Assembly: GCA_000165345.1 (NCBI GenBank)
Contig: CM000431.1
Coordinates: 64,001 to 128,000 of the forward strand
DNA: 64,000 nt
Direction of reading: 5' to 3'
A program made the position numbers and the translations under genes. A model generated the notes under the pieces. That model did not search any database, was not told where the DNA came from, and saw only the letters and a list, made by a program, of their open reading frames with translations. The first letter of the stretch is position 1. Each line of letters starts with the position of its first letter. Below, piece after piece: positions 3,107 to 56,104 of this stretch.

Positions 3107-3741
3107 TTTAAAAATTAATTACGGTCAACTGAGACCTTTTCAAATTAAATTTCATCCAATAATTCAACGAATAAATTTCAGTCTAATGCTTTCGATTTTG
3201 AAACTTCATAATTATAGAAATTGATCTAGTATTTTGATTTTTTAGCCACACACAGTTAAGAAACACCCAGTTAGGAGTGGCAATGCCAATAAAAGATGAG
3301 CAAATGAGAGTAAAGCAAGGGCAAAATGATGCCTTCCAATATATTAACGAATAAAGCCCGGATTCTCAATATACTTCATCAACTTATTAATTTTTTTTTT
3401 AAATAATTAGCATAAAATATATTTTAAATAATAACACGTGTTGGCGCCTCTTTTATTATAGTATTTACGCAAAAAAATATTAGAGATTTCAAGATCATAA
3501 AAAAATAAATGAAAATTATTAACAAATTCCATAATAGGGTAATGCTTGTTTAAAATAATACTTGTTTTTCATATTTGAAACCTTCTAATAGATTTATTAA
3601 GTCCCATTAGGCTTTCTCTGATAATTTTAAGTGTCTAGTTAATCATCGTAAAAATACAAACATGACTTTTTCACAAAAAATGATTGAGAAATTAAAAAAA
3701 AATTAGCTTATACGAAAAATAAATCTAAAACCTTAGACTGG

Positions 3742-6700
3742 CTAATTACGTAGAAAATCATAAAAATCACAAAAATCTAAATAGTTTTTACCTGGTTTGC
3801 AGCATTCATTTAGAAAGATCTCGGTCCAGTGTATGTGAGCACAGTATTGGACAGAGTTGCTTTGATCAACTCCCAAGAAACGCTCATCTCTTTGCTGATC
3901 ATATGATTGAGAGTTCCCCAACTTGAGGTATTGTTCATATTGTTGGGGCGAAATAGTTTCTGAGCATAGAATGATGTCATCTTCCCATCCGAAAGAAGCA
4001 AGTATGTCTTGAACAGAGACCTTTCCATCTGAATCTTTATCAAAATTCCTGAAAACTGTTTTTAATGCGCTAGTATTATTTAGATACATTTCAGGCTCCA
4101 TTGAAGCAGCAATAAACTCAGAATATTCCCAGGATCCACTTTGATCTTGGTCTATGATACCAAAAATACCTTCTATTCTATTACAAAGCTCATTAAGTTT
4201 GATGATGTCGTCAATATTGAAGCTGCATAGAAACTTTAAAAGCTGGTCTTTATTGAACGTGCTTTGATTTGAAAGTGATTTCAAGTAGTCATCGATGGAC
4301 ATAGATTTGCGGTTTCCAATTTGATTGGAATGATTGAAAGCTCCTTTTTCTGGGCTTTCAATTGCAGAGCTTCGAAATCCTTCATCATAGATCTCATCAA
4401 AGTGGTCCTCTTCAATTTCACTGGCATTATCTATGTAATCTTCAAAACTAGGTTGATTGTTTGGGGAATTTGAAAGAGGAGGAAGAGAAGATGAACGAGA
4501 AGATGCAGATTGGAAGTTATCATTTGAAGTTTGTTTAGGGTGGCATTGCTTGTTCTTGTAATTGCTAGATGAAATCCTTTCAACGTGGAATATAAAACAA
4601 AGAACACATTGTAGTTCAGCAAGAGAAACTACACCATCTGCTGCAACATCAAACCTGTTGAATTGATCTCTGAGTTGATTAAATTCGCAGTTTTCTCCTA
4701 TTCGAAGAGCAATTGAAACTAAAATGACTCTTTTCAGAAGAGTATAGTTACAAAACCGTTCCCAAGATGATATCAGTTTAAGGAGAGGCTTGTAAGCGTT
4801 ACATGTCTTATTATAAATAACGCAGTGGAATAATTGTTCTTTATCGCATACTTTTGAGACGATATTTGGAATTGTAACGTTATTTATGACTGATATACGT
4901 TGACCATTTGCATTCTCGTCTGAATTCTCAAGATATTCATCTATATTTCCTTGTTTTAGATTATTATTTGTTAGTAAATTAGAAAAAGAAAGTGAGGACC
5001 TTGAAATACTGTATGACGTAGTGAATGTAGATGAAGAAGATGAAGAAGACGATATTGAATTGGGTATCGAAATTCCGGAGTAGCTTTTTGACCCATCACA
5101 ACTTCCATGATCTATTGAATTAATAGTAACGTTGCCTTGACAAATGTGATTAAGAACTATAGGGTTCCCACAATGGCAGCCAAAGTGAAATCTTGTATCT
5201 CCAGGAGGAGATAAAATGGAATCTTCTTGGTTTAATAAAGCATTGATAGTTGCTTTGGTTCGAGGAGTAGCTATTTGCTGATCTGTAATTTGAACTAAGC
5301 CAGGGTTATATATAGAACTATTTGGAATACTGGCAAGACTTGGATTAGCGTCTGTATTTGGATAAGCATTGTTCATTGAATAGAGAAGTGGAGTACTACA
5401 GGATCTTTTCAGCATTGAATTTCTATTCACGTTTCTAATTTGACTTCCAGTTGATAAACCATGAGATTCTAAGAACCCTATCATAGATCCTGCTACAGAT
5501 CCTTGCCCTGAGCTAGAGTCTAACCTTGGCGGAGCATTTACTATTTGTGTTTTGAAGAAACCTCCGGTTTCTGGAGAACTGGTAACAACTGGTGTATTAT
5601 CATCAGATCCTGATAAATTATTAAGATCTTCTTCAGAAAGAATATCATTTATTCGTTCTCGATTGGAATATAAACTTGGGGAAGAAATGCTGGATTTGAT
5701 CTTAAGACTACTAATGCCAGATGAAGCTCTGGACTTAGTAACCCTCATTCTCTGTTGATGCCATGGCCAAACAACAATCTTGTTAATCATTCCAATACCA
5801 CAAAGAGGAATGTTCGGCGTGTCCCAAGATCTAAGCCAAGGATGTTGTAATGCTTGGAATGCAGAAATCCTTTCTGATGGGTTCTTATTCAATAATTGAA
5901 GAAGAAAATCTTTGGCTTGAGTGGAGACTTGGCTCCAAATAGATTCTGAAAACGATACACTTCCTCTTCGAACTTTCTCAATGATTTCAGTATCAGTGTT
6001 TCCTGCAAATGGAGGCACTCCACATAATAGAATATGAGCCATTACACCAATTGACCAAATGTCACACTTATCATCATATCCTTTACCTAATAAAATTTCT
6101 GGAGCAATATAATATAATGTACCGACTCTGGTTCTAAGAGTTCCAGTTCTGGTAATTCTTTTTGCCAATCCAAAATCTATAAGTTTAAGAGGACTATTCA
6201 ACTCAAAACAATTACAGTTACATTCACACTCCTTCTCTTGATGGGAAGGTATTGGATATTTAATAGAAGAAGAATTGGAATTTGAAATAGAGTTAGATAC
6301 AGAACCCTTTTTCAAGTACATATTAGCAATAAAGTTTGGACTTCCAAATGGCTCAGAGTTAGGAATAGGTATATCTGTATGACTGAGTTCTCCATTGTTA
6401 GTTTCTTGATCATAACTTTCGTGCCTTTCTCCCACTTCTTTATCACGGTTTTTCTTACAAATCTCTGAATTTGAAGCAGAGAACAAGTGATTGGAAGTAA
6501 TATCACAAATGCCGTTATTGTTACTAGGAGTTATTGTGTTATCGTTGATATTATAGATTAGGGATTGGAGTTGTTGGTTGTTCATACTAGATGGTAAAGA
6601 TCTACAAATCCTAAATCTGTCTTGTTTCAAGTATTTGGATAGAGCAGCCTCTTCATCTTGGAATAACTGGCTACTTTTCTGTTCAAAAAGGCAGTGCTTG

Positions 6701-7284: not shown

Positions 7285-8410
7285 CTTTTCCTTCTTTTCT
7301 ACTTAAATACATGTTATTTCTCAAAAAAAATGCTTAACACACTGAGTTATTCCCCATAAGCATACTTTAGATAGCTTAATTTGGCAAAAAACTTTGTTTA
7401 CGATATCTATATTTCTAGTTGTATATTTTCTTTGAATTCATTTTCAATCGGTACCGCCTAGGCGCCAATGATAGAGAGATAAAAGGGGAGGCCCAATAAA
7501 ATTAAAGTAAATTATCAATAGTGGCTATTGCATGCGCGAATATATTTTTATTGGGAAGTAATATTTTTGCGAATTTTAATTATTGCATGCAATATGGAAA
7601 TATGTTTATTTTCATGAACAGTTCTAGATAGGGGTTAGATTTTCTAACTGAATATTTGCGGTAGACTCATTTTCAATAAAAACAGATAAAAGTAGTCAAA
7701 CAATTCATTGTTTGGATACTATCTAGGCTAATTTGGTGCTAATATTCACAAAGGTTTTAATATAATATACATCCTTTCCCCCCCCTTTTAAAGCCATGCA
7801 AAAAAAAAGAAAATAAATTAGGCGCGCCAAGACACGTAATAATGTGTGTAATTGTGTGTTTAGATAATTAATATAAATGTAAATGTCAAGAAGACAAGAG
7901 GAAAAAAAAACCAGCGGAGTTTTGTAGAGGTCAGGGAAATTGGATTTTTTTGTTAAGCAAGAAATAATTAAAATAATTGGAAAAAGGTTCGAGGAAGCCA
8001 GGGAATTGCTCATTTAATATATATTTGGTAGAAAGAAATATCTAATGATTTGATATTAAAGTGGAAGAAACTAAAATTTGCCAGTGGGTATTAAATCTTA
8101 ATGAGGAGTTCTCCTTCCTCCTCTAAAACAAAGCAATTTTAACAATAGCATGCTTACGTTAATTTTGGAGTGGTTGAATAAGACTTCCAAAAAGTGAGGA
8201 TCAGACAAATCAACAAGAAATAGGATATTATTAGTAGAAAAAAGAGAATTTGATTTGTAGTATTGATTTACAAAACCATAAATACTACAAATATACCAAT
8301 ATTTAGTAAATATCAAAGATTCAAAAACAAGCCGTATATGAAGATTTATAATCCTGAAATAAACTACTAAATAACAAGTTAAAAACGATAAATAAGTTAA
8401 TAGAAGAAAT

Positions 8411-11803: not shown

Positions 11804-12420
11804 TAAAAGAGATTTGACTCAACTTTAATGTATTTTAGTTTAACCATTTGATTAATTTTTTTAATAATTTGTTGATTTATTATTAATATTAATAAAAATA
11901 TTGATATATAGACAATTTAATATTTCTCTTACAATTTAATTATATACAATATATGAATATATAAAAGTATGCAAAGACATATACAAAATGGAAAATTTAA
12001 GAATAATTGTTTAAAATGTTTTTATATATTTATTTCGAGTCCGACTGGAAAAAAAGTAAATATGAAAGAATATTTGGTGGGGAGATTTGATATAAGAGTT
12101 TTTGCATTACCGGTATTAAAAGATAAGTGATGACGTGTCATTTATTTATTAAGTATTTATTTTGAGAATAGTCTGAATAAATTGAATGAAAATTAAAGAG
12201 AAAATAATCAAGTGAAATATTGTTTTTTTTTTGTATTGAACTTAAATAATATTAATATTGAGTAGATATAGGTTATACAAATATTCTTTAAGAATATCTT
12301 TGAATAATTTTAGATTTATATTTCTATGTTATCAATTTTGAATTTAATTACATTTTTTGCATGACATGCATGCAATGTTGTTTATTGTGGCGGTAATTTC
12401 AGGGTCAAATGTCAGAAGTT

Positions 12421-12431
12421 TTGGCGGGAAA
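12421..12431. promoter_or_regulatory. E2F-like site TTGGCGGGAAA about 470 bp upstream of the helicase ATG.
   Basis: Exact match to the E2F/DP consensus TTTSSCGC. It is part of a window-wide set of GGCGGG/GGCGCC cores in 5' regions (3441-3448, 7458-7468, 7821-7830, 22447-22457, 24534-24544, 33067-33077, 33099-33106, 37260-37267, 50141-50148, 55920-55928). Confidence 0.5.
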
Positions 12432-17213: not shown

Positions 17214-17427
17214 AAAGTAAATAAGAAAAATAAAAAAATTCATGAAAAAAACAATACAAAATCACGATTTGATATAGGAAAAAAAATTTATTTTAGTTAG
17301 AAAAGGTTTAAGTTAAGTTAAGTTTTTGTAAGGTTTTATGTTTGATAGTTTTTAGTTTTGGGTTTTGGGGTTAAATTTGTCTTGGGATTTTGGGTTTTTT
17401 GGTTTAAAATAAAGAATTAAGGTTTTG

Positions 17428-18450: not shown

Positions 18451-22267
<3,817 letters not shown>

Positions 22268-22446: not shown

Positions 22447-22487
22447 TTTTCCCGCCCAAGATGGCCACATGCAACTGTGCATGCACA
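22447..22487. promoter_or_regulatory. E2F-like TTTTCCCGCCC followed by the palindromic TGTGCATGCACA, about 180 bp upstream of the 22267 ATG on the minus strand.
   Basis: Read directly. Confidence 0.45.
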
Positions 22488-24354: not shown

Positions 24355-25222
24355 TTAATTTTGTATTTGAGATTTATAATAAATTATATTGCTTACCAAC
24401 CTTATTGGTATTCTTTAAAGAAAATGTGACTCCTCATTCTTTACCGATTATTTTAATATAGACGTGAAAAAATTTAATAACTTATGCTTAAATATTATTT
24501 ATATATATTTTAATATTTAATAAATATATATTCATGGCGGCACACAATATTCTCTTTTTAATAAATAAATATTTAATTTTTCCATACATTTTCCCTCCAA
24601 ATAATGTTTATTTTCTTTATTTATTCTTAAATAATTTAAGTTCGTTTAATGCGATCCTTTCTTTTCTAATTAAAGCTTGATTAATCATTTTTAATAGACT
24701 TTTTGTTGAAACATGAAAAAAAAGTTGTAATCTTAATACATTTAGTGTACTAACTACAGTACTAATTCAAATTTCTTGGCTCACACACTTCAAATCCATT
24801 TTTTTCTACTATGTGGGTTAAATATAATTTCCAAAGTTGCTTTAATTCTATATGGATTTTAGTAAACTTGGAGGAAAAAAAAAATATTTAGTCCAATATA
24901 CATCCTTAAACCTATTACTGATTTAGAACGGCTTATAATACACAATATGGAAACTAACCATTTAATTCATATACTTAGAAAGAGAAATTCAAAGAAATGA
25001 TTAAATCTTTAAAGGAAAAAGAGCTATTATTTTTATTTTGAGTAGTAAATTAGAAAAATAAAAAAACAAATGATTTCTTTATTAAAATAAAAATATCATT
25101 TATATATTTTTGCTAAGCTCCATTTGCTATTTTATATTAAGATTAATTATAGTTTTTAGTACCGGTATTGCAATTTTCAATTTTTATTTTTATTTTTTTT
25201 GCATGTAGCAATGATCAATAAA

Positions 25223-32691: not shown

Positions 32692-33252
32692 TCTAATAAG
32701 TTATTCAAATGTGTATGCGTTGAAATAAGCAACTAAAATCGAATCAAAGTAATAGTAATATTAATTTTATTATTATAAATCAGTATGTTCAATTATATAC
32801 TCTTATTAATGGCACAAAGATATTAAGGAGGGGTTTTTGATTAATGTTTATCATTGGGTTTAGAGAGGGGCGATATAGTTATACTGAAACTTTCTAAGAA
32901 ATTACAAAAAAAAAAATGTGAATAAACTCAAATCTATAAGAGGAGTGAAAAGAATATTTGGTCATGCATAAATATGGAGTATTACAAAGAGGAATCAAAT
33001 ACTTAAAGAAATATTGATAAAAACAATATTGTTTTTATTAAAAATTGCAAACCAAATAATAAATAAATGGCGGCAAATCATGCACTGCCCTTATTTTAGG
33101 CGGGTAATGTTTAAAATATAATGATATCAAGCAAATCTAATAAAATTTGCAAAAGAAAAAAGTCAAGTAAAGAAAAAAAGAAGAAATTTGAAACAATAAT
33201 AATTGAAAGTTAAAGGTTGAGAAAACAAAAGTGTTATTTAATAAGTACATAA

Positions 33253-34563: not shown

Positions 34564-34564
34564 A

Positions 34565-34580: not shown

Positions 34581-34638
34581 CCAATTGGCGCCGGCGGCAA
34601 TTGTTATTTAGATAAACTGTGGGATGTGTATGCATGCA
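34581..34638. promoter_or_regulatory. Near-palindromic CAATTGGCGCCGGCGGCAATTG (20 of 22 positions symmetric) plus a TGCATGCA box at 34631-34638. It lies between the tRNA-Trp gene and the 34668 ATG.
   Basis: Read directly. Two inverted GGCGCC/GGCGGC cores. Confidence 0.45.
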
Positions 34639-36221: not shown

Positions 36222-36256
36222 TGCATGCAATTTCCCGCCCAAATTTGGGCGGAAAA
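36222..36256. promoter_or_regulatory. TGCATGCA box followed by a near-perfect 26-bp palindrome TTTCCCGCCCAAA|TTTGGGCGGAAAA (a double E2F-like site).
   Basis: Read directly. It sits in a 3'-3' convergent gap, 36-70 bp beyond the CAF1 stop codon. Confidence 0.45.
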
Positions 36257-36291
36257 CTTGGAGAATTGGTGATAAAGACATGAAGATCGCT

Positions 36292-37125: not shown

Positions 37126-37819
37126 AATGGCTCCTCTCAGGCTTAGCTATTGCTAAATAATAGCAATAACGTAAAAACTTTCAATCTTTCAATTTTTACT
37201 GATTTTTTAAAATTATGAATAATATTAATTTGCCTGTCCAAATTTATTTAAAAAAAAAATTGGCGCCATTCCCTTGTGATGCTGTATGAGCGCGCGCCCT
37301 ATTTATTTAATTAGTAATTAACTTAATGTTCCCCCCTTCCAAAATTGAAATATTTTGTCAAGTTTTCAATATTTATTTTGAAAGTTATTATTTCTAAATT
37401 TCCAACTTCTATTTTCCCTCCCCCCCAATCCGTACTTAATTTTCAGTATTTTCAAAGTATATAATATAATTTCTGGGTAGGAAGGTAGTATTTAATTAAG
37501 TTATTTTTAGTGGCTTGCACTAAAGGTATGAGGTAATAGGGTTTGCCAGGAGTTGCATGAGCCAATAAAGAAAAAGATCTATTAGCATTATTGATATAAT
37601 AAATAATTAAATCAAAAAAAAAATATTACCACTTTATTCATAGTTTTGTGACCAATTGAAATATATCATATTCAAGAGCCTTCTCTTGACCAGTTATTTA
37701 GATTTCCTGGTATATTTTATAATATAAAAATTACAGTTTTATTAGTTATTAAAAGCTGTCAGATCTTGATTTAATTTCCCCTTTGATTGACTCTTGTTTC
37801 ATGTAAAAACCCTTCAAAA

Positions 37820-38212: not shown

Positions 38213-40161
38213 GCAGAATGGAGAATAAGCACATCACTTTTGGTTTTTATAGTTGATTAGAAATAATCAACGTAATTAGCTCTTCAGTCTTATATATCAT
38301 AATAATAATTATTATTTTAATCACCAGTCTTTATCAAGTTCTTATATACATCTACTTCTTAGAAAATTGTAACTTTTATTTCATGCTTATATGCATGTAT
38401 GCATATATGCATGCATTTGCGGGTATATAAATAATATATATCTATACTTAAACCCATTGCATGCAATATCTATTTTAAATGAATACTTATGTAATTATAA
38501 ACTTCAAATTACATGCAGCTTTTAATTCATTGATTTTTTATGCATTAATTAAATAAAATTGATTCTTTGAATTCCATAAATATAATTATCAAGTTTTTTC
38601 TCTTTAGTTTTGTTTTCTGAATATATTTTTTTCTTTAAATCCACCATCCCACCTAAACTTTTCGAGTTAAATGATTTCTGTTATTTAAAGAAACATTTAT
38701 CATTCTCGAATTCATAAAATTAAAATGACTTAAGGAGCTTTATTAAATTATTCCCACATACTTCAACTTCTCTTTTTTATAATTAATTAACTGAAATTAT
38801 TCATGAAAAATAGCCAAAGTTTACCCCCCCATGCAAAAAATGGATATTTGGAGTGAGTTTATTATATTTTAATTGCAAGTAAGTTCCCGCCTAGTTCTTT
38901 AGCACGTCTCTAAAAATAAAAATTTTTATTCACAATAAAAGAGTCGTGTAAAGCCAGGAAAAAACATAAGAGGAGTTTTAATAGTGCCACTTTAAAGCAA
39001 GAGCTGTGCACAGCTAATTTTTGACTTCCGATTAGTTGAGTGAGTCTTGGTCTAATTTATAAAGGCTTTTATAGGTGTATGATTCCAGTATCTAAAAGTG
39101 CTTGTAATTTATTTCTATATAGAAAACGTTGAAATATTACAGGTAAGGCTGAGACTTTTTAATCTTTGAATTGGAGTGGGTTTTTTTAGAATATATGAAA
39201 TTACCGTTGGTTCCTTTAGGTATTTAGAACAGAGTACATTCCACTTTAAAACTGGATTGCTATTTTTTATAATTATTTATTACCTTTACTGCTTATATAT
39301 TCAAATTGAAAGCTACCCCATAAACTCATTTTTTTTTTTTCTGAAGCCAATACTGAGTTATAAACAATTCATTGAGAAGCAGTTAAAAGGAAGATTAATG
39401 GATTTGTGATACAATTGGAATTATTCTCAAAACGAAAAATATATATATATTATATATTTTTCTCTTTCTCAATCGCTCTCTTTCTTTGGTTTAAGCACCA
39501 TAAATAAAATTAAAGTTTTAACAGAATAATAAGTTCTGCTAATTGTTTTCATTATTCCAAGTGAATTCTGTGTTATTCTAAACAGACAACATTGAAACTT
39601 TATTGACTTGCCATTCTTGCAAACAGTTAATGGTGTTAGAGAGTTGATAGAGAAAGATTGAAAACCTTTGTTTGTTTGTATGTATATGTATATATATATA
39701 TATATATATACTTCAAATTTTTTTTTCATCTTTTTTTTTGGATTATTGAGAAGATAGTGAAAGATTACTGAGATAAATTTCATTCAAAAATCTGTTGCTT
39801 TCATTTTTTTCTGGCACCTCTAAGCAACAATTAAGATAAAGTATAAGGCATTAAAAAGAAAAGATCCTCAAATAATTACTTCTCAACCAAATTATTTGTG
39901 TTGAATTTCCAGCGTTACTTTTGTCTAATTTATTTGGTTGAAGAGGATAACTTGAAATTACCAAATACTTCTTTAAACCAAGTTGCTCTTCGGAAGAAAT
40001 ATACTTATAAATAATTACATCGATAACCATTATAGAGGTTTTAAAAGGTTTTAAAATAATTAATTAACCACCCATTCAATTAAAGAATTAAAAAACAGAG
40101 ATTCATATATTACCAATAAACTTTCTTCACTTTTATTACTTTCCGATAATCACACAAAGAA

Positions 40162-43344: not shown

Positions 43345-44523
43345 ATAACTCAACTTCTTTACTTGATTGTAAATCCACTGAACTTGAAGAATTGAAGTGT
43401 CAGGTCACTCTTTTTTTTAAAACTGAGCTCATCTGTTCAACTTTTTCTCCATGTTGACGCTTTGTAAATCTTTAAAATATTGTCTTGGACCTTAAAACAA
43501 AGCCTTAACGCTTCAATATTTTATACGCTAAACCAAAAACCTCATCTCTCTTTATTTTCAATGTTGAATTCAAAAACCCATCAATCCAGCCATTTTTTGT
43601 CTTTTTTTGCAAGCAACTGCCTGTTATTTTTTACCGGTGCATGCATACATATTTTTTTGTGCATGTACCTTTCTCATGTGGAAAGGCGGGGACTCCGCGA
43701 CTAGAAAAATAACTATAAATTGACTTGGAGATGCAGTAAAAACTAATTAAAAAACAATAATTAATTTATGAAAATAAAATAAATGGGGCGAATAGTGGTG
43801 ATAGGGAAAGAAGAATCAAGCCTTCCAGATGGCTTACTTCGGGATATTTTTTTTTTTTGCTTTAATAAAAGAAACTTAAAATAAATGAATTTTTAAATAA
43901 AATAATACATTTTGAAAATAAACCCTGAGGCAGATTATAATTAATTGATGCTTCTTTGACTTTTCGACTAATAGCAATAATAAGAATAATTGGTTCTGTT
44001 GAAAATACACTCGGCCAAGGCAGATAATGTAACTATATACCAGACCGAGGACCCATTCTAATCTTAGTGTGCTTCATTACGAATATTTACTCCCAAGCAT
44101 CTTGAAAGTTCTTAGAAGAGCAAGTTGTTTTCATGATTTTTTTAACTTCAAATTCGAATCAATTAAACGCATTAAATGGTATATTTGGACATTTACTATA
44201 TTAATGCTAACAAGGCCTGACATGTACTAACCTTGTGGAGGTAGAGATAAAGATATAAATAATCAAATCAAGAAAAGATTAGAGATTCTGAACTTAATAC
44301 CATTCTAGAATTTAATTCTGAGAGAGCTACCTCATTAATCAAGTAATTTTTAGTCATGAAAGTCAGGATATTTTTTTGATAGTTTTCAAATTACAATTTT
44401 TTTTTTTTTTTAAGTTAAATTGATTGATCAGAAAGACTGAGAAGATCATAAATATATTGCAAAATTATTTTACTTATATATTTGCTCCGAATATTATAAT
44501 TAAAATGATTAGATCTATTTTAG

Positions 44524-46812: not shown

Positions 46813-47115
46813 TTCATAGCAAAGTTATGTTTCAATTACTACTCTTTATATTTGTTCACAAACAACTACTTACAAAATTTGTTACTTCTTCTTCTGTTTA
46901 AACCCTCCTAATATATTAATATACATTAATTTGTACACATGCTACTCAAATTTATTATTATTATTTTATTTTATTTATTTCTTATTTATTAATCGCCGGT
47001 ATAGGAAAATTTGTGTAATTTTTTTTTATTAGCAAAAAAAAATTTATTCGCATGACTAATAAAATTATATACCGGTAAAGCAGTAAATGACGTGTCGAAA
47101 AAATACAAAATTAAA

Positions 47116-49851
47116 ATGCAAAAAATTAATACCCCAAATTATGATAAGATAATATTTGACGAGATTGAACACCAAAATTTGAATTTTTTGGACCTAAAGG
47201 AATTAAATGATAAATTTTTAGAGAAACCAGTATTTGAGCTTGAGAATGAAGAAATTAACTTAAAAATAAGAGAAATACTAAAAAATAAGAATATTGTAAA
47301 ACCAATAATTTTGTTAATTGTTGTAAATAGGCTAATAAAAATTGGAAACAAGTCCATTTTTTTAAAGCCTGGAAAATGTATTGAAGAAAATGTATTCATC
47401 CCCGAGCTGGAATTACTTGCTTTTTTACTTAAAGAAGGAAACATTATTAGAGACTGTTGTGAATATGCCAATTTTTCAAATTTACAAGATATAAGTAACT
47501 CATTTACTATTGAAGTTTTGAATTCCATAATTAAAATTCCCACCCTTGCAATTAACTCAATACTGACCTTGAAACCAAGTCTAAAGAATAATATGAATTT
47601 TAGAATACTTGATAAATATATTCCGCTAGAACTACATGATTCCAACTACTATGAAAATATTTGGATATGTACATTATATATTTTAAACGATATAAGACTA
47701 ACTGATAAAGCCACTTACAATGTTTTACAGGTTATTTTCAGCAGATTATTCCTGAGAGGATACAAGGAAATTTTATGTAGGATTATGGTTGGATGGTCGA
47801 ATAATATTGATAAATCTTTATTTGAAGACTGCAAACTTCTTAATAATGAAGAATTATGCTTAAATCGTGTTTTTGATAATATACTAAAAATTAACAAAAC
47901 TGATGATAATTTAATTAAGTCTTTTATTAAACAACTATTCAAAGAAATAGAGTCGGTAAGAGTGCAGAATAATCAAGGAATATTATTTCTCAAGCTGAAA
48001 GACCGGAACTTTGAGGAGGAATTAAAAGTTGAAGATATAAGAAATGACGATTTCTTTTTATTTCTTAAATCCATTGTTGACTTTTGTATTATTGAAGAAG
48101 ACTTGAAGAATAAGGGATTTCTCAAAAGTGAATTGTTTCAGATTAAGAAACAAAACTTTTCTATTAAAACATACTTGTTATTTCTGGATATTTGTGTTCT
48201 TAATGTTATCAAGAATGATGAATTCAATAAATATTTCTTGCCTGAGCAGAGCTTTGACTATTTAGAAATGATTAGATCAGAAAAACTGGCTGCTCTGGAA
48301 GAATCCAACAAATTAAAGATTTATTTAAATTTTCTTAAGGAACTGACCCAATGTTTGACTAAGCAATGGAATTCCTATCAAGATTCAATGGCTTATTCTC
48401 TTACTCTTTCTACAGTAATTATTCGATCAGTCTCTATTTTAATATACTTAAATCTAAGTAATTTATTAAACTTAAAGAAAGTATTACTTGAATTTTATAT
48501 GGATATCACAGAAGGTATACAATTTAGACTTAAGAATATTGACCCACTCATTAGGTCTAGTGCTATGTATCTGGGAGAATTTTACTTTAACCTACTCTAT
48601 GAATTGTTCCCGTCCACTAATGAAGCTGATAGCGGATATTTAATGAGTGAAAACCCAAAATTTGATGAACTTAAATTATTTAATCCAGAAATTAAAAACC
48701 GCTTATCCTGCATTTATAATTCCACAAAATTCTTTGCAATTAACACCTTTTCATATGAAGGTGAGATCCAAATCAGAAATGCTACTGAATCCATTAAAGA
48801 TATGTCCTTGAGCAAGGAAAAAAAAGAGTTTAATGAAGATCAAGAAAAGAAGATCATAGATGAAGATGATGAATTTTGGAATAAGGCACCCTCAATCAAA
48901 GCAAATTCCAAAAATGAAGGAATAATACAATTAAAAACTCCAAAAAGCTTACATTATACTTCAGGAATAGAGCAAAAGAAGCAAGAGCCAAAAAGGAAGC
49001 TTGTGAATAAATCTTTTGACTTGATTAATCTATACACAGATGAAAAGAAATCTAAAGAAATACAAGACAAATCTGAAAAACTGTTAAATATATTAAAAGA
49101 GTTAGCTGAAAATATCGAAAAGGATGATTCTAATTATGACCACCTAATTCTTCCTCTTATTGATAAGTTAATTTCATTAAAAGAAAAAGATCAAAAGATA
49201 CTTGTACTCATAATTTTTTCAAAACTAATTCAGTATAAGACAGATAAAGTTTCAGTGGAAATGATTAACTATTCATGCAATATGAACAACGGGATTCCAA
49301 TGGATTTCAGGATCCTCATACTAAATTCTCTGACATCTGCATGCCAAAACATGGCAAATACACAAAGTAATACTCAATCAACTATTCGCCCTAATAAAAA
49401 AACTATAATTAATCTATTTGATAAATATTCACTAATTTGGTCATCCCGTCTAGTTAAATATATCATGGAACTAATTACGCACTCTGAAAATCACGAATGC
49501 TTTGAGAAAATTCCTAATATATTCTTCATTTCATCTCTAGAACTATTTAACCAAATTATCGTTAACACATCATCTAACAATGCAAACATTGGACAAATTG
49601 CCCACTCTGGGCTAGAATTTATCACATCCATAGATTTAACTAATAATCATTTATTCAAAGACATAGCTATCAGAAAATCCATTTATATGCTTACCTTTAA
49701 CATTATTCTCAAGATTAAATACTCATCATATTTTCTGGCCCTAAACCAAATTTTACGCCAGGTCGTCACATGGATTTCCAAAGCAGAGATATCTGAAACA
49801 GATCCCAATTCTATCTGGATCATTCAAGAAACCAAATCATTTATTTCTTAA
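47116..49851 (+). CDS. Hypothetical protein, about 911 aa from the first ATG. The track ORF starts at an upstream GTG at 47092.
   Basis: A long ORF rich in Leu/Ile/Lys/Asn, probably helical. No recognised family. Confidence 0.6.
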   Translation: MQKINTPNYDKIIFDEIEHQNLNFLDLKELNDKFLEKPVFELENEEINLKIREILKNKNIVKPIILLIVVNRLIKIGNKSIFLKPGKCIEENVFIPELELLAFLLKEGNIIRDCCEYANFSNLQDISNSFTIEVLNSIIKIPTLAINSILTLKPSLKNNMNFRILDKYIPLELHDSNYYENIWICTLYILNDIRLTDKATYNVLQVIFSRLFLRGYKEILCRIMVGWSNNIDKSLFEDCKLLNNEELCLNRVFDNILKINKTDDNLIKSFIKQLFKEIESVRVQNNQGILFLKLKDRNFEEELKVEDIRNDDFFLFLKSIVDFCIIEEDLKNKGFLKSELFQIKKQNFSIKTYLLFLDICVLNVIKNDEFNKYFLPEQSFDYLEMIRSEKLAALEESNKLKIYLNFLKELTQCLTKQWNSYQDSMAYSLTLSTVIIRSVSILIYLNLSNLLNLKKVLLEFYMDITEGIQFRLKNIDPLIRSSAMYLGEFYFNLLYELFPSTNEADSGYLMSENPKFDELKLFNPEIKNRLSCIYNSTKFFAINTFSYEGEIQIRNATESIKDMSLSKEKKEFNEDQEKKIIDEDDEFWNKAPSIKANSKNEGIIQLKTPKSLHYTSGIEQKKQEPKRKLVNKSFDLINLYTDEKKSKEIQDKSEKLLNILKELAENIEKDDSNYDHLILPLIDKLISLKEKDQKILVLIIFSKLIQYKTDKVSVEMINYSCNMNNGIPMDFRILILNSLTSACQNMANTQSNTQSTIRPNKKTIINLFDKYSLIWSSRLVKYIMELITHSENHECFEKIPNIFFISSLELFNQIIVNTSSNNANIGQIAHSGLEFITSIDLTNNHLFKDIAIRKSIYMLTFNIILKIKYSSYFLALNQILRQVVTWISKAEISETDPNSIWIIQETKSFIS

Positions 49852-49870: not shown

Positions 49871-49900
49871 TTCCCGCCAACTTCAGATCTATGGCGGGAA
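49871..49900. promoter_or_regulatory. Perfect 9-bp inverted repeat of E2F-like half-sites (TTCCCGCCA, 12-bp spacer, TGGCGGGAA). A third copy ttccgcc follows at 49904-49910.
   Basis: Read directly. It lies 20-50 bp past the stop codon of the 47116..49851 gene and about 600 bp upstream of the ABC transporter ATG. Confidence 0.5.
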
Positions 49901-50508
49901 CCGTTCCGCCTTTAAAAAAATAAGCTTTATATGGGAAAAAAAAAGGAATAAAACTTGTGAAACAATTTTTCAAGCAATAATAAAAATGAGGAACTGAAGT
50001 TATTGGTAAGAGGTTTGAGAATAAGAACGTATTATTCTACAGAACTTTGATTATTTAAGTATTTTAACAATTTATAGTTAATGTAATATTAATAGTCATA
50101 TTTTCCCATGTGCAATATCTAAAAAATTCAGTGCACTCAAATGGCGCTCACTTTTTCTCCCAAATCCCAAACCCAAATTAGTGGAATGGAATTAAAATAA
50201 AAAAATTACTAAAGGAAAAAGAAACAGGTTAAGGATTTGAGAATACTTTAAATGCAATTAACTTAATATAATTTTAAGCTTTTATATAAATAATTCAATT
50301 TAGAGAAACGAATTAAGGAATAAACTTTAATATTATAAGTATTGGGAAATAGAAACTAATTTTAAGAAAAGGGAATTTTTAAATTTAATATTATTTGAAG
50401 TCAAGGCAGCATTTTTAAAAAGTTAACTTTAATGAAATTGATTGGCAATCTAATTACTAGGCTCTAAGGCTATTCTGTAATCAATCTATAACAATCCAAG
50501 ACGTAACA

Positions 50509-53500: not shown

Positions 53501-55464
53501 TAGTCTTCTTTATATCTGTTTGCTTACTAATAATGACAAGTATCATCTTAGATAGTGGCCAAGACTTTCTACTTGTAGAATGGACAGGTTTCACTTCGGA
53601 CGGTAGGGATTTGAAGACTGGTACGGAGTTTTATGATAGCAATTCAAGCTCACTCAATACTTTTGAATCTCATATGAACTATATGTATGGACTAATTATA
53701 ATATTTATATTTGGGATCTTGACACACCTTCTCGTACAAGTAACACAGATTTACGCAAGTCTTAGAGCTGCAAAGAAAATTCATAATGAAATGTTGAGTA
53801 AATTACTTACTACTTCTCAGGAATTCTTTGACAGAAATACAATTGGACAAATAATTAACCGTTTTTGTTTGGATATGGTTTCTATAGACAGAAAGACTAT
53901 GTTCAGGATATGCAATTTTGTCTCAATTTTTTTGGAGATCTTAATCAGAGGTGGATTCATCATTTTCGTGTTTCCATGGCTACTATTAATGATACCTCCA
54001 ATTTGCCTATTTGCTTGGTTTTGGCTATTCCAATATTATAGACATGCATCCAGAGAACTTTTTAGATCCAATCTATCAGCTCATACACCAGTATGTAATA
54101 TTTATACCCAAGCATTAATGGGAGGATCTATTATTCGAGCATTTAGATGTGGGCATGTATTTCTAAATAGAAATATCAATTATATTGATAATCTTCAGAA
54201 GATCAGATTTATGAGATCTGCATCTGCTCAGTGGATTAGTGTTAGAATGCAGCTTCTTTTGCTTCCATTTACAGCTGGTATTACATTGGCGCCAATTCTG
54301 TTAAAGTACCTGAATTTAAGTACAGCATTCTTTGCGTCATTTACTATTATTAAAATGACTGCAGGGTTATGGGGTCTTGCTTTGGTTTTTGTAATGTCCT
54401 ATGCTCCCTTAATTAATGATTTTTTCAATATGTTCACAACCGTAGAGAAGTCTATGTGTGCTGTTGAAAGGGTTTCAGTACTACTAAATGATTTGGAAGA
54501 TTCAAAAAAGAAGGAATTTAATGAGGAAGTTCACGAATTGAAATACAAAGAATACATGGTATCAAACCGTAATTCTCCCCAGAATAATTTCCAGGGCCTT
54601 TATATTTATGAGTTAAGGGTAGAGTATGGAAACCAATCTCTTGGAATTGAGCTTAAGAATGAGTACGTAAAATATGGGGAATGTATAGGAATTATTGGTA
54701 GAACTGGGAGTGGGAAAACAACATTTTTAAATTCTTTATTAGGTCTTACTCCAATCCAATCCGGTCTATTATTTTTGGATGGAAAATGGCTATTTAATAA
54801 AGATATGAGAAAGAATAGGAACGATTACATAGGAGTTTTACCTCAGAATTCAATAGGCTTTGATGGGTGGACAATCAGAAAGTTTTTAGATCCTTTTGAT
54901 GAGATTCATGATGATCAGGTTATTTGGGATGGAATATATGCTTGTGGTCTCGAGACTACCCTCCGTTCTATGAGTAACTTGAACCCCTTGGATGCAGTAT
55001 TAGGAAATACTTCAGGTGGGATCTCAAAGAGACGTGGCTCTAAGGACAAAAATGAGTATAAATTTACTCAGAAACATTTAAGACAGCTTGCTCTTGCTAG
55101 ACTAGTAATCCACAGGTTAAAGTATAAGATTATTCTTGTAGATGAGCCTCCAGAGGAACTTTCTAGCGATTTGCAGAAACAAAATGGTAGCGATAATTAT
55201 GTCTCTATGAACTCTTCTTCTTCAACCAGGAAATTAGGAAGCAATATTTTGGAAAACCAGTACCTTTCTGTAGAGGAAATCGTATCCAAATTTATGAAGC
55301 ACTGTGTAGTTTTTATAGTTGCTCACAACTACAAGTCTTTAAAATCCTGTAATCGAATTTGGGTTTTATCAGGAGGAGTTAAAGTTAACGAGTGTGAATT
55401 TTCTCAAGTGAACAACCAACAAATGCTTGCAGATTTTTTACTTACTAACACAAAAAATCAATAA
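50509..55464 (+). CDS. Full-length ABC transporter (TMD-NBD-TMD-NBD), ABCC/MRP-like, 1651 aa.
   Basis: NBD1: Walker A GNSGSGKST, signature LSGGQRSRLTLARAL, Walker B LFLFDD. NBD2: Walker A GRTGSGKTT, Walker B IILVDE, and an interrupted signature (TSGGISKRR...LRQLALARL). Multiple transmembrane helices precede each NBD. Confidence 0.85.
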   Translation: MFGKTLDDTSFHKKISFQKEESLEIPYLKENPIKRQKNQSFFSFAHSYIQFTWVTKWIYLGSRRPLPAKDLPDLPETDSTNYWSNLFENSIEQERLKNLSSFDRNVLVIRALWKCLYGQFIMLIILKVSWEACLYLNNSVIRGFIQYKEMESSAEVSGVSSEKSQALGVGLWNGLLLVLFYLVHVYISTQFNFWESRVILKIQTCLKTSIFKRLIESKSCAKNLLQNGKEIVDSKIKEDKLNIAEDLHLDIDSSLSNQNSKSQNNNLNETGQNTNRSFDDKKKGSEDRYTISTNVFNLLMVDVEDIEDFIMALIQFILLPCRIFVASLLMYRNIGESAIPGVVVMISMIVFMIILDIISALLKGPLLYWRDKRLAKLHEVLNKIRTIKILGWAPFAEEIVLRDRRNEVSYLYRIISFSALSYLFFKLAISGSVVAIMVYYTKGMLSRAGNLSSYPNGFDLKASNIIPLIHVINYVAGILRTVPNSLNMLIEGWISLKRFSHHLGYSHLPSDVNKELLENHRSLGDDIVCKSNISSEGRIEKQQKQEETPLISKILTFDGGNMLEVNEVINKKNQDKLPSQVFHSYKNQKMEYTFDESILVYLQDLEYIPESDDENFKKTKNSFTLIIPKMIIKKNSCHLIVGNSGSGKSTLLYGILGEVYSKRGLRFIRSQNSTIGFCSEDPWIPIGTIRSVILFERPWNEKRYNRVLEACLLIEDIMQWQERDLRVLDDGGHILSGGQRSRLTLARALYGFLSDQEEYNSFDEDSIEENSHHSVYCISDRSSNRFDTQLFLFDDTFVSLDPNVGRRIFYNLFNRENGLLTGGNYSAVIVINTTVLLCFLDEKLSQEEINEKFGVEINIWNIKSESGRPNYNVLEHSKYETLKNSGMEKDHSFNNSESNSRTVSGYIDVGSSQVTKEKFELRKRNLSAEKEAKSNSNLSSSIVTDFEHQNSIIKARGTASSYSSSDFYNEDIICIQSETGHRAIPLSLYRWYLSKVGIVFFISVCLLIMTSIILDSGQDFLLVEWTGFTSDGRDLKTGTEFYDSNSSSLNTFESHMNYMYGLIIIFIFGILTHLLVQVTQIYASLRAAKKIHNEMLSKLLTTSQEFFDRNTIGQIINRFCLDMVSIDRKTMFRICNFVSIFLEILIRGGFIIFVFPWLLLMIPPICLFAWFWLFQYYRHASRELFRSNLSAHTPVCNIYTQALMGGSIIRAFRCGHVFLNRNINYIDNLQKIRFMRSASAQWISVRMQLLLLPFTAGITLAPILLKYLNLSTAFFASFTIIKMTAGLWGLALVFVMSYAPLINDFFNMFTTVEKSMCAVERVSVLLNDLEDSKKKEFNEEVHELKYKEYMVSNRNSPQNNFQGLYIYELRVEYGNQSLGIELKNEYVKYGECIGIIGRTGSGKTTFLNSLLGLTPIQSGLLFLDGKWLFNKDMRKNRNDYIGVLPQNSIGFDGWTIRKFLDPFDEIHDDQVIWDGIYACGLETTLRSMSNLNPLDAVLGNTSGGISKRRGSKDKNEYKFTQKHLRQLALARLVIHRLKYKIILVDEPPEELSSDLQKQNGSDNYVSMNSSSSTRKLGSNILENQYLSVEEIVSKFMKHCVVFIVAHNYKSLKSCNRIWVLSGGVKVNECEFSQVNNQQMLADFLLTNTKNQ

Positions 55465-56104
55465 TATCTTTTTTTTTTTTATTTTTGCCTCTACTTATAT
55501 TTTTAGCATTTTAAACTTATAAATATATTAAGAAAATTTAAGCAAAAACAATAAAGATACCTACCTGATAAAATGATTATTAAAGCAGTAGTTAGATATC
55601 AAGTATATTGTTTGACTAAATAGTAAGGAAAACAAAAAAAAACATTATTAGTAATATAAGCGAGTTAGATTTGAATACGTCGGGTTTCTTTTTTTTTTTT
55701 TAATAATTTGGAAATTCTCCCTTAATATTGACATTTCTTTAATTTATCGAATAACTATTTGTTCTTGTTATATTATCAACAAATTTTTGCTTTTATTAGA
55801 ATCAGCTTAATATTTTTGTATTACGTGTAAATATTGCGCATGCATGCAATTTAGAAAAATTTGTTTGCACAAATTCATGTATGAACTCTATACCGGTCTT
55901 GAATGTGGCAAAAACTACGTTTGGCGCCAGTTATTGGTTGATTATTTAATTAGGTGAATAAAAAAATAAAGAATAATAATTCGAAAAGTATTTTTAATTA
56001 TAAGTTAGGAGAAAGCAGAGGCAACCAAGTTTTATTTCAATCAAAGTTTTTTTTTGAAGTATTTTTGGAACGAAACCAGTGTGTCTTCGAAAGCTCGACA
56101 CTAA

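What the first reader, a model, noticed from the sequence alone, without database searches (positions are those of the whole stretch)
3441..55928. E2F-like GGCGGG/GGCGCC sites mark nearly every 5' intergenic region, several as palindromic pairs
TTGGCGCC / GGCGGGAA cores occur upstream of almost every gene start: 3441, 7458, 7821, 12421, 22447, 24534, 33067, 33099, 34581, 37260, 49871-49910, 50141, 55920. Three are organised as inverted repeats. One is a perfect 9-bp pair with a 12-bp spacer at 49871-49900. One is a 26-bp near-palindrome at 36231-36256. One is a 22-bp near-palindrome at 34581-34602. Such palindromes are ideal for E2F/DP dimers binding head to head. Within Apicomplexa the combination with TGCATGCA boxes is characteristic of Cryptosporidium. 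That supports the taxonomic call. It also suggests that a few stacked-site promoters (ABC transporter, membrane protein) are especially strongly E2F-regulated.
Basis: partly seen in the sequence, partly recalled or inferred. Interest (0 to 1): 0.5.

Follow-up and report, generated by a model that had tools for sequence, protein, structure and literature searches.

The report
Known Cryptosporidium E2F-like promoter motifs
The GC-rich GGCGCC/GGCGGG boxes between the genes of this Cryptosporidium parvum segment are real, strongly enriched and conserved across species, but they are the already published "E2F motif" of this parasite, and the best palindromic pair sits at the start of a published antisense RNA.

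Summary
The window is Cryptosporidium parvum chromosomal DNA, 99.98% identical to CP044420.1. GGCGSS cores occur 19 times in 13.6 kb of intergenic DNA against 1.4 expected from dinucleotide shuffles (0 of 1000 shuffles reach 19). Coding DNA (50 kb) has 4 against 2.5 expected. Unbiased k-mer ranking recovers GGCGGGAA and TTGGCGCC directly after the TGCATGCA family. Sites recur at orthologous positions in the other Cryptosporidium species sampled (10 loci; C. ubiquitum, chipmunk genotype I, C. canis, C. felis, C. xiaoi, C. serpentis, C. muris and an unnamed GC-rich species): 48 intergenic hits against 6.9 expected.

This is the published Cryptosporidium E2F motif, reported in upstream regions, in ATAC-seq peaks and upstream of lncRNAs. 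The genus is reported to be the only apicomplexan that kept E2F/DP. Binding by E2F/DP has not been shown experimentally.

- The inverted pair at 49871-49900 lies 57-86 bp upstream of the start of the published antisense lncRNA Cp_lnc_150 (49814, minus strand).
- The palindrome at 36231-36256 and the site at 43685 lie between convergent genes, not in 5' regions.
- Two or three genes lack any site.

One extra observation: an E2F-like/TGCATG cluster inside the VPS13-like coding sequence shows synonymous-site conservation.

Verdict: observation confirmed, interpretation partly supported, already known.

The parts
3441..3448 (.). TTGGCGCC site, preceded by ACACGTG, about 335 bp upstream of exon 1 of the Kelch-phosphatase gene (ATG at 3106, minus strand)
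   Evidence: An orthologous TTGGCGCC lies at the same distance from the CDPK stop codon in chipmunk genotype I, and TTGCGCGCCA in C. felis.
7458..7468 (.). CTAGGCGCCAA site, 177 bp upstream of the CDPK start codon, in a divergent intergenic region
   Evidence: Conserved in chipmunk genotype I at 179 bp.
7821..7837 (.). GGCGCGCC palindromic site fused to AAGACACGT, in the CDPK/gene 8411 divergent region
   Evidence: The composite GCGCCAA(A)GACACG is conserved in chipmunk genotype I, C. felis and C. xiaoi.
12421..12431 (+). TTGGCGGGAAA site, 471 bp upstream of the SKI2 helicase start codon; TGCATGCA box at 12367
   Evidence: Orthologous TTTTGGCGGG sites in chipmunk genotype I, C. felis and C. 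xiaoi.
22447..22459 (-). TTTTCCCGCCCAA site, 184 bp upstream of the large gene ending at 22267 (minus strand); TGCATGCA box at 22478
   Evidence: A site is present upstream of the ortholog in chipmunk genotype I, C. felis, C. xiaoi and C. muris, at 56-146 bp.
24534..24542 (.). Weak variant ATGGCGGCA, 200 bp upstream of the NTF2-domain gene
   Evidence: Orthologous regions were not covered, so conservation is untested.
33067..33106 (+). Two direct sites 30 bp apart (ATGGCGGCA and TAGGCGGGTA) with CATGCA between them, in the NMT/SDR divergent region (154-184 bp from the SDR start codon)
   Evidence: C. ubiquitum has the same two-site module 30 bp apart. C. xiaoi, C. serpentis and the GC-rich species L016 also have sites there.
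34583..34602 (.). Compound double site AATTGGCGCCGGCGGCAATT (20-bp near-palindrome), 18 bp downstream of tRNA-Trp (34492-34565) and 66-85 bp upstream of the start codon of gene 34668
   Evidence: Orthologous double sites: CCCGCCGGCGGG in L016, GCGCGCCCGCGGGG in C. ubiquitum, TGGCGCCA in C. serpentis. The tRNA is conserved in four species.
36222..36256 (.). TGCATGCA box abutting a 26-bp near-palindrome of two inverted sites (TTTCCCGCCCAAA / TTTGGGCGGAAAA), in a convergent intergenic region 36-61 bp past the CAF1 stop codon
   Evidence: C. ubiquitum keeps the right arm and a degenerate left arm. L016 keeps CATGCAA plus two sites 35-47 bp from the CAF1 stop codon. Not upstream of any annotated gene. 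Predicted by me to be an antisense or unannotated promoter.
37260..37299 (.). TTGGCGCCA (137 bp upstream of the CAF1 start codon) and GCGCGCGCCC 31 bp further on, in the CAF1/gene 37820 divergent region
   Evidence: TTGGCGCCA is exactly conserved within diverged flanks in C. ubiquitum, chipmunk genotype I and L016. There are two sites in C. xiaoi.
38884..38894 (-).
   Evidence: Identical site and flanks in C. ubiquitum and chipmunk genotype I. No conserved ORF nearby.
43638..43692 (+).
   Evidence: A site at the matching position, about 830-870 bp beyond the RecQ stop codon, in C. ubiquitum, chipmunk genotype I and the GC-rich species L016; C. canis (L011) has one at 418 bp. No lncRNA in the published catalogue.
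49871..49910 (.). Perfect inverted pair TTCCCGCCA-N12-TGGCGGGAA plus a third degenerate site TTCCGCC, 20-59 bp past the stop codon of gene 47116-49851
   Evidence: These are the recorded upstream motifs of Cp_lnc_150 at -66 and -85 (PMC7840661 Table S3). The right arm is conserved in three other species. The whole pair with a 12-bp spacer is conserved in C. canis.
49107..49814 (-). Published antisense lncRNA Cp_lnc_150, antisense to the 3' end of gene 47116-49851; its 5' end lies 57 bp from the inverted pair
   Evidence: Both ends of the published sequence match the window exactly.
50141..50149 (+). Degenerate site ATGGCGCTC, 366 bp upstream of the ABC transporter start codon
   Evidence: The orthologous position is a canonical TTGGCGCC(C/T)ACTTTT in C. 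ubiquitum, chipmunk genotype I and C. canis.
55920..55930 (.). TTTGGCGCCAG site, 182 bp upstream of gene 56105; TGCATGCA box at 55841
   Evidence: Conserved at 164-181 bp upstream of the ortholog in three other species.
59570..59655 (.). Cluster inside the VPS13-like coding sequence: TTGGCGCCAT, two CATGCA/TGCATG boxes, and ACATGCATTGG(C/T)GGGCC (degenerate in C. parvum)
   Evidence: 17 of 24 synonymous codons are invariant in four species, against 46 of 203 in the rest of the aligned 3' coding sequence (Fisher P = 4e-6). The invariant runs coincide with the motifs. The region was chosen after seeing it, so this is a post hoc test.

Best explanation
These are instances of the known Cryptosporidium 'E2F motif' family ([A/T][C/G]GCGC[G/C][A/T], GGCGGG; MEME form TTSSCGCCWAA). 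This is the most abundant cis-element of C. parvum promoters.

Shown here:
- The sites are confined to non-coding DNA, far above what composition predicts.
- In the 5' regions they typically sit about 80-200 bp upstream of start codons.
- They cluster with each other (pairs 20-31 bp apart) and with TGCATGCA (ApiAP2-type) boxes.
- They are kept at orthologous positions across the genus while the flanking intergenic sequence diverges.
- One pair lies 57-86 bp upstream of a mapped transcript start (Cp_lnc_150).

Inferred:
- Each site is bound by an E2F/DP winged-helix heterodimer. C. parvum has two E2F and two DP genes according to the literature.
- Binding opens or marks a nucleosome-free promoter in very AT-rich DNA and activates RNA polymerase II transcription in one or both directions. 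The transcripts include mRNAs and antisense or intergenic lncRNAs.
- The inverted pair at 49871-49900 most likely holds two heterodimers about two helical turns apart. It would serve as a bidirectional promoter for Cp_lnc_150 to the left and possibly the ABC transporter mRNA to the right.
- The sites in over-long convergent regions (36231, 43685) most likely mark unannotated transcription units.

Because the motif precedes genes of every functional class, it acts as a general promoter element and not as a cell-cycle-specific switch.
For: - Identity of the DNA.
- Enrichment over dinucleotide shuffles and over coding DNA.
- Unbiased k-mer ranking places GGCGGGAA and TTGGCGCC 8th and 9th among 8-mers, directly after low-complexity words and the TGCATGCA family.
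- Positions relative to start codons (81, 137, 154, 177, 182, 184, 200 bp and further).
- Clustering with TGCATGCA (P = 0.005) and with each other (P = 0.017).
- Cross-species counts in 10 orthologous loci: 48 intergenic hits against 6.9 expected, 26 hits in 170 kb of coding DNA, Fisher P = 1e-18.
- Site-by-site conservation.
- Exact mapping of Cp_lnc_150 and of its recorded E2F/DP1 motifs onto the inverted pair.
- Literature:
  - E2F is the most over-represented upstream motif, found in 161 of 200 co-expression clusters (PMC3734150, PMC4117751).
  - It is the top motif in sporozoite ATAC-seq peaks and between genes of polycistrons (bioRxiv 10.1101/2025.01.17.633476).
  - It is the top motif upstream of lncRNAs (PMC7840661).
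  - E2F and DP genes are present in the genome (PMC12246861).
Against: - No ChIP, CUT&RUN, EMSA or protein-binding-array result shows that Cryptosporidium E2F/DP binds these sites. PMC12246861 states that most regulators lack functional validation, and one search found nothing.
- The motif is far more widespread than a canonical E2F regulon.
- Retinoblastoma-family partners are reported absent (PMC3734150).
- The gastric species have fewer strict sites. C. muris has 1 in 24 kb and C. serpentis 4 in 21 kb, with degenerate forms instead.
- Both inverted pairs would also fold as hairpins in the 3' UTRs of the adjacent genes.
- Only one transcript start in the window is documented. All other site-to-gene assignments rest on proximity.
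Confidence: 0.8

Rival explanations
1. The motif is a real promoter element but is read by a factor other than E2F/DP. Candidates are a GC-box-binding ApiAP2, zinc-finger or Myb-type protein, or it could be a core-promoter or nucleosome-excluding element. The resemblance to E2F sites would then be coincidental.
For: - No direct binding data exist (PMC12246861).
- The motif precedes genes of all classes and most gene clusters (PMC4117751), unlike a classical E2F regulon.
- Several window sites deviate from the strict consensus: GGCGGC and GGCGCT.
- General GC-rich 6-mers are also enriched in intergenic DNA, 50 against 19 expected.
Against: - Both variants (GGCGCC/GCGCGC and TTTCCCGCC/GGCGGGAA, with T-rich and A-rich flanks) are the two classical E2F/DP site forms (PMC3734150, citing plant and animal work).
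- Protein-binding arrays of C. parvum AP2 domains did not recover this motif (PMC4117751).
- The genus that has the motif is the one apicomplexan genus that kept E2F/DP.
- Permuted GC-rich control patterns are not clearly enriched.
Confidence: 0.12
2. The two inverted pairs (36231-36256 and 49871-49900) act at the RNA level. They would be stem-loops in the 3' UTRs of CAF1 and of gene 47116-49851, affecting 3'-end formation or stability, instead of or in addition to being DNA binding sites.
For: - Both lie 20-61 nt past a stop codon.
- Predicted hairpins: -19.9 kcal/mol (z -3.5) on the CAF1-sense strand, and -16.9 kcal/mol (z -2.7) on the sense strand of gene 47116-49851.
- In C. parvum and C. 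ubiquitum the single imperfections in the 36231 element become G-U pairs on the CAF1-sense strand.
Against: - At the 49.9 kb element, C. ubiquitum and chipmunk genotype I keep only one arm, which is a complete E2F-like site with no hairpin.
- In the GC-rich species the 36.2 kb element is two adjacent sites without a significant hairpin (z -0.1).
- Any two inverted copies of one motif form a hairpin by construction.
- A transcript start is documented 57 bp from the 49.9 kb pair.
- Two transitions both giving G-U on the same strand is expected by chance about one time in two to four.
Confidence: 0.06
3. The sites are chance or compositional by-products of GC-rich patches in intergenic DNA and have no function.
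For: The window is small. Some listed sites are degenerate. One perfect 10-bp palindrome, TTGGCGCCAA, sits in the ABC transporter coding sequence (54286) and is not conserved.
Against: - 0 of 1000 shuffles reach the observed intergenic count.
- Intergenic DNA is more AT-rich than coding DNA yet carries 17-fold more sites.
- Core 6-mers are retained at most aligned positions in intergenic regions that are only 45-65% identical.
- The same enrichment is seen in the other species sampled.
Confidence: 0.02

Closest known systems
Cryptosporidium parvum E2F-like upstream motifs (motif 3 [C/G]GCGC[G/C] and motif 4 GGCGGG of Oberstaller et al. 2013, PMC3734150; first noted in non-coding DNA of chromosome 6 by Bankier et al. 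2003, as cited there)
   Same: Same organism, same two sequence variants, same location in upstream non-coding DNA, and the same co-occurrence with the AP2_1 box TGCATGCA. This window is simply a local sample of that genome-wide pattern.
   Different: Nothing essential. The window adds locus-level detail: site-by-site conservation across the genus, paired architecture, and sites in convergent regions.
E2F/DP1 motif upstream of C. parvum lncRNAs (Li et al. 2021, PMC7840661; motif 1 TTSSCGCCWAA)
   Same: The inverted pair at 49871-49900 is literally an entry of their Table S3 (Cp_lnc_150: -66 TTCCCGCCAAC and -85 TTCCCGCCATA). The transcript maps exactly to 49107-49814 on the minus strand.
   Different: The other 3'-located or intragenic sites (36231, 38886, 43685, 59632) have no transcript in the held part of that catalogue.
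E2F motifs in sporozoite ATAC-seq peaks and between genes of polycistronic transcripts (bioRxiv 10.1101/2025.01.17.633476)
   Same: A single dominant motif in open-chromatin promoter peaks. More than half of those peaks are annotated as bidirectional. The motif is present in tandem intergenic spacers.
   Different: Their peak coordinates could not be overlaid here, because no supplementary files are held.
Canonical animal and plant E2F/DP sites (TTTSGCGC; Arabidopsis TTTCCCGCC/TTTGGCGGG), including promoters with two inverted E2F sites such as the adenovirus E2 early promoter (from my own knowledge)
   Same: Same core and T/A-rich flanks. There is precedent for two inverted sites being occupied cooperatively by two E2F complexes.
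   Different: In animals and plants the sites mark a restricted cell-cycle and DNA-replication regulon controlled by retinoblastoma-family proteins. Here they precede most genes, and those partners are reported absent (PMC3734150).

Membership tests
Cryptosporidium E2F-like promoter motif | Sequence matches [A/T][C/G]GCGC[G/C][A/T], GGCGGG or TTSSCGCCWAA | tested here: met
   19 intergenic GGCGSS cores. 10 intergenic 11-mers lie within one mismatch of TTSSCGCCWAA.
Cryptosporidium E2F-like promoter motif | Over-representation in non-coding or upstream DNA after correcting for composition | tested here: met
   19 observed against 1.44 expected, 0 of 1000 shuffles reaching 19. Coding DNA has 4 against 2.5 expected. 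De novo k-mer ranks 8 and 9.
Cryptosporidium E2F-like promoter motif | Located upstream of transcript starts or in open chromatin | tested here: inconclusive
   One direct case: the Cp_lnc_150 start at 49814, 57-86 bp from the pair. Other sites are judged only by distance to start codons.
Cryptosporidium E2F-like promoter motif | Purifying selection, meaning retention at orthologous positions in other Cryptosporidium species | tested here: met
   Most sites are retained in 2-4 other species although intergenic identity is only 45-65%.
Functional E2F/DP binding site | E2F and DP genes present in the same genome | not testable with these tools
   They are not in this window. The literature lists cgd1_1560 and cgd6_1430 (E2F) and cgd7_3650 and cgd8_1850 (DP) (PMC12246861; bioRxiv 10.1101/2025.01.17.633476).
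Functional E2F/DP binding site | Physical binding by the E2F/DP heterodimer (ChIP, EMSA or binding array) | not testable with these tools
   No such experiment was found. The review states that functional validation is lacking.
Canonical cell-cycle E2F regulon | Target genes restricted to DNA replication and cell-cycle functions | tested here: not met
   Genes with sites here include a CDPK kinase, SKI2 helicase, NMT, a short-chain dehydrogenase, CAF1, an ABC transporter and hypothetical proteins. The motif behaves as a general promoter element.
ApiAP2 AP2_1 box (TGCATGCA) | Palindromic TGCATGCA enriched in intergenic DNA | tested here: met
   10 intergenic copies against 0.12 expected. Top-ranked non-repetitive k-mer family.

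The most novel reading that the evidence does not exclude
E2F-like/TGCATG modules that are not in 5' regions mark a conserved layer of unannotated transcription, such as antisense or internal promoters. Three such modules are seen here:
- the pair 36-61 bp past the CAF1 stop codon;
- the site in the 1.2-kb convergent spacer at 43685;
- the cluster embedded in the VPS13-like coding sequence, with synonymous-site constraint.

Inverted pairs with a fixed 12-bp spacer placed just past a stop codon would then be a dedicated architecture for sense/antisense bidirectional promoters. Cp_lnc_150 is the one documented example, and the pair is conserved in C. canis.
Probability: 0.3. Interest if true: 0.45.

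Novelty: already known. Interest (0 to 1): 0.2.

Why it matters
The E2F motif is thought to drive a disproportionate share of transcription in Cryptosporidium, the only apicomplexan genus reported to have kept E2F/DP. That pattern is already published, so this window adds confirmation and not discovery.

The locus-level results do give concrete targets for the still-missing functional tests of E2F/DP binding and of antisense transcription in this pathogen:
- conservation of individual sites across the genus;
- an inverted pair tied to a mapped antisense lncRNA;
- promoter-like modules in convergent spacers;
- a promoter-like module inside a coding sequence.

Tried and rejected
1. Orientation rule. 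I tested whether the asymmetric GGCGGGAA form always points toward its gene. Among independent orthologous groups in one-sided intergenic regions, 3 point toward and 2 point away. Rejected.

2. Other lncRNAs from the Li et al. catalogue. I searched the catalogue with 18-mers taken 150 bp to either side of the sites at 36243, 38886, 43685, 54290 and 59635, and to one side of 34027 and 3443. There were no matches. Neighbouring catalogue entries 148 and 151-154 do not map to the window.

3. Small conserved protein genes in the convergent or long spacers. Six-frame segments compared with three species gave only multi-frame hits in C. ubiquitum, on both strands. That indicates DNA-level conservation, not coding conservation.

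4. Structured RNA genes. Rfam and ARAGORN found only tRNA-Trp.

5. RNA hairpin reading of the palindromes. I kept this as a minor rival.

6. The perfect palindrome TTGGCGCCAA inside the ABC transporter coding sequence (54286). It is not conserved in three other species and is treated as chance or lineage-specific.

7. Polycistron and ATAC-seq supplementary data. These are not held.

8. My first crude gene model misclassified three regions:
   - Exon 1 of the Kelch-phosphatase gene lies at 3106.
   - The 36-bp repeat belongs to the large gene ending at 22267.
   - The 104-aa ORF at 39469-39783 is dubious.
   After correction the enrichment conclusions are unchanged.


Full report
**What the DNA is.** The window is AT-rich (about 30% G+C) and densely packed with long, mostly intronless eukaryotic ORFs. 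The protein encoded at 34668-35792 is found unchanged in two Cryptosporidium parvum assemblies. Window 24668-45792 is 99.98% identical to CP044420.1. The gene at 47116-49851 is 96% identical to C. hominis CHM_3g400. There is a 500-N assembly gap at 20327-20826.

**Gene model.** The genes, in window order, are:
- a Kelch-phosphatase gene, whose exon 1 starts at 3106 on the minus strand and is followed by an intron;
- a CDPK-type kinase (3742-7284, minus strand);
- a hypothetical gene (8411-11803);
- SKI2 helicase (12894-17213);
- a very large minus-strand gene ending at 22267, which is 2634-2923 aa in other species but is broken here by the gap and a 36-bp repeat;
- an NTF2-domain gene;
- an RCC1-repeat gene;
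- N-myristoyltransferase;
- a short-chain dehydrogenase;
- a hypothetical membrane protein (34668-35792);
- CAF1;
- a small gene (37820-38212);
- a hypothetical gene (40162-43344);
- a RecQ helicase;
- a hypothetical gene (47116-49851);
- an ABC transporter (50509-55464);
- a hypothetical gene (56105-58780);
- the 3' part of a VPS13-like gene.

Every listed site is present. GGCGSS cores on either strand occur 23 times. Nineteen are in the 13.6 kb of intergenic DNA and four are in the 50 kb of coding DNA. Dinucleotide-preserving shuffles of the intergenic regions give 1.44 +/- 1.15, and none of 1000 shuffles reaches 19. Coding DNA is at expectation (4 against 2.5). The density ratio is 17-fold, Fisher P = 7e-10. 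Permuted GC-rich control patterns are not clearly enriched.

An unbiased ranking of all 8-mers was run after masking a tandem repeat. GGCGGGAA and TTGGCGCC come 8th and 9th, directly behind homopolymer and AT words and the TGCATGCA family. With the refined gene model, 13 of the 14 intergenic regions of 300 bp or more carry a site. The three regions of 116 bp or less carry none.

In the 5' regions, the nearest sites lie 81, 137, 154, 177, 182, 184 and 200 bp from start codons, with a few at 335-640 bp. Six of ten intergenic TGCATGCA boxes lie within 85 bp of a site (P = 0.005). Site pairs 20-31 bp apart are more frequent than random placement within the same regions allows (P = 0.017).

**The palindromes.**
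- 49871-49900 is a perfect 9+9 bp inverted pair with a 12-bp spacer, followed by a third degenerate site.
- 36231-36256 is a 26-bp palindrome with one mismatched pair.

**Conservation.** Using orthologs of three window proteins, I fetched syntenic loci from C. ubiquitum, chipmunk genotype I, C. canis, an unnamed GC-rich species, C. felis, C. xiaoi, C. serpentis and C. muris. Across these loci the same pattern occurs 48 times in 37.9 kb of intergenic DNA (6.9 expected). It occurs 26 times in 169.6 kb of coding DNA, and most of those coding hits are in the 51%-GC species.

Site by site:
- The TTGGCGCCA upstream of CAF1 is conserved.
- The TTTGGCGCCAG upstream of gene 56105 is conserved.
- The TTCCCGCC upstream of the large gene ending at 22267 is conserved.
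- The TTTTGGCGGG upstream of SKI2 is conserved.
- The two-site module between NMT and the dehydrogenase is conserved.
- The composite GCGCCAA(A)GACACG next to the kinase gene is conserved.
- The double site after tRNA-Trp is conserved.

These are retained in two to four other species, although the surrounding intergenic DNA is only 45-65% identical even to C. ubiquitum. The weak 50141 site corresponds to a canonical TTGGCGCC in three species. The gastric species (C. muris, C. serpentis) have fewer strict sites and some degenerate ones.

**What it is.** This is the published Cryptosporidium E2F motif.
- Oberstaller et al. 2013 describe motif 3 ([C/G]GCGC[G/C]) and motif 4 (GGCGGG) as E2F-like and as the most over-represented upstream motifs. 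They note earlier reports for chromosome 6 and for replication and glycolysis genes (PMC3734150).
- The follow-up paper counts the motif upstream of 161 of 200 co-expression clusters. It did not find it among AP2-domain specificities (PMC4117751).
- A 2025 preprint finds it to be the dominant motif in sporozoite ATAC-seq peaks and in the spacers of polycistronic transcripts. It lists two E2F and two DP genes.
- A 2025 review repeats that Cryptosporidium is the only apicomplexan genus with E2F/DP, and that functional validation is lacking (PMC12246861).
- I found no binding experiment.

The phenomenon is therefore already known. The assignment of the trans-factor remains an inference.

The showcase pair at 49871-49900 does not sit in a typical 5' position for the ABC transporter. 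It begins 20 bp after the stop codon of the upstream gene and lies about 610 bp before the ABC start codon. Table S3 of Li et al. 2021 lists, for antisense lncRNA Cp_lnc_150, E2F/DP1 motifs TTCCCGCCAAC at -66 and TTCCCGCCATA at -85. These are exactly the two arms. The published Cp_lnc_150 sequence matches window 49107-49814 on the minus strand at both ends. The pair is therefore 57-86 bp upstream of a documented antisense transcript start, which lies inside the last codons of gene 47116-49851.

Across species, the right arm is kept in all four species examined. The whole pair with the same 12-bp spacer is kept in C. canis. The left arm has decayed in C. ubiquitum and chipmunk genotype I. I infer a bidirectional promoter. 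The proximal conserved site at 50141 may serve the ABC gene.

The palindrome at 36231-36256 abuts a TGCATGCA box and lies between two convergent genes, 36-61 bp past the CAF1 stop codon. This geometry mirrors the Cp_lnc_150 case. C. ubiquitum keeps one and a half sites there, and the GC-rich species keeps CATGCAA plus two sites. A further conserved site at 43685 lies in a second convergent spacer.

These two spacers are 499 and 1179 bp long. The three site-free convergent spacers are 36, 40 and about 116 bp long. In C. serpentis, which has no sites there, the same two spacers are 85 and 194 bp. I infer unannotated transcription units. None is in the held part of the lncRNA catalogue, and no conserved small ORF was found.

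**Mechanism.** The structure cited in PMC3734150 shows one E2F/DP heterodimer recognising one symmetric CG core. Each arm of a pair is therefore a full site, and a pair would hold two heterodimers. Centre-to-centre spacings of about 21 and 30-31 bp recur. That is compatible with binding on one face of the helix, but the numbers are too small to test.

Because genes of every class carry the motif, it behaves as a general promoter element and not as a cell-cycle switch.

A rival RNA-level reading has some support from predicted folding. Under it, the pairs would be 3'-UTR hairpins. It is weakened by species that keep a single arm or two non-complementary sites.

**An extra observation.** Of the four intragenic cores, the one at 59632 lies in a cluster (TTGGCGCCAT, two CATGCA boxes, ACATGCATTGGnGGGCC) inside the VPS13-like coding sequence. 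The protein is conserved there. Even so, 17 of 24 synonymous codons are identical in four species, against 46 of 203 in the rest of the aligned region (P = 4e-6). The invariant runs coincide with the motifs. The region was picked after seeing it, so the test is post hoc. It suggests an embedded regulatory module.

**Verdict.** The finding is already known. It has modest residual interest in the antisense, convergent-spacer and intragenic modules.

Noticed in passing
window 34492-34565 (+); L006 9664-9738; L007 9381-9454; L008 9725-9800: A tRNA-Trp(CCA) gene sits between the dehydrogenase gene and gene 34668 in all four species examined. The E2F-like double site follows 10-40 bp after its 3' end, so a Pol III gene abuts a Pol II promoter element.
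   Followed up: partly
window 59570-59655: An E2F-like plus TGCATG motif cluster lies inside the VPS13-like coding sequence. 17 of 24 synonymous codons are invariant in four species, against 46 of 203 in neighbouring sequence (post hoc test). It may be an embedded promoter for an antisense or internal transcript.
   Followed up: partly
window 17427-18142 and 20327-20826: A 36-bp tandem repeat (about 14-18 copies) encodes RKPETPSQLLKA-like units on the minus strand, but with frame changes. Together with a 500-N gap, it breaks a gene that is 2634-2923 aa in other species. The gene is incomplete or mis-assembled in this window.
   Followed up: partly
window 12108-12141 and 47070-47098: A second composite element, TACCGGTA followed after 12-17 bp by TGACGTGTC, occurs twice. 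One copy lies in the only sizeable divergent promoter without an E2F-like site (RecQ / gene 47116). ACCGGTA is itself enriched in intergenic DNA (8 occurrences in 5 regions against 0.38 expected).
   Followed up: no
window 3431-3448 and 7821-7837: ACGTGT/CACGTG directly abuts E2F-like sites (ACACGTGTTGGCGCC; GGCGCGCCAAGACACGT). The second composite is conserved as GCGCCAA(A)GACACG in chipmunk genotype I, C. felis and C. xiaoi.
   Followed up: partly
window 38874-39034 and 39353-39470: Two non-coding blocks are 80-100% identical to C. ubiquitum within a 1.9-kb spacer that is otherwise 57% identical. They begin at the E2F-like site at 38886. No conserved ORF and no Rfam match. They may be a lincRNA or a long 5' UTR of gene 40162.
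   Followed up: partly
window 3023-3106 (-): Exon 1 of the Kelch-phosphatase gene (MAQKEQMFGDIPTARFGHSTTFVGNSKG) is followed by an intron. A plain ORF scan puts the start at 2301 and so misplaces the promoter by 800 bp.
   Followed up: yes
window 35793-36291 and 43345-44523, compared with 31255-31290 and 58781-58820: Convergent spacers are either tiny (36-40 bp) or long (499 and 1179 bp). Only the long ones carry E2F-like and TGCATGCA boxes. In C. serpentis the same two spacers are 85 and 194 bp long and have no sites.
   Followed up: partly
window 54286-54295: A perfect 10-bp palindrome, TTGGCGCCAA, lies inside the ABC transporter coding sequence. It is not conserved in C. ubiquitum, chipmunk genotype I or C. 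canis.
   Followed up: yes
window 18971-19405: A long imperfect TTA trinucleotide array (about 145 copies) lies inside the large minus-strand gene. It is a low-complexity coding or spacer tract next to the assembly gap.
   Followed up: no
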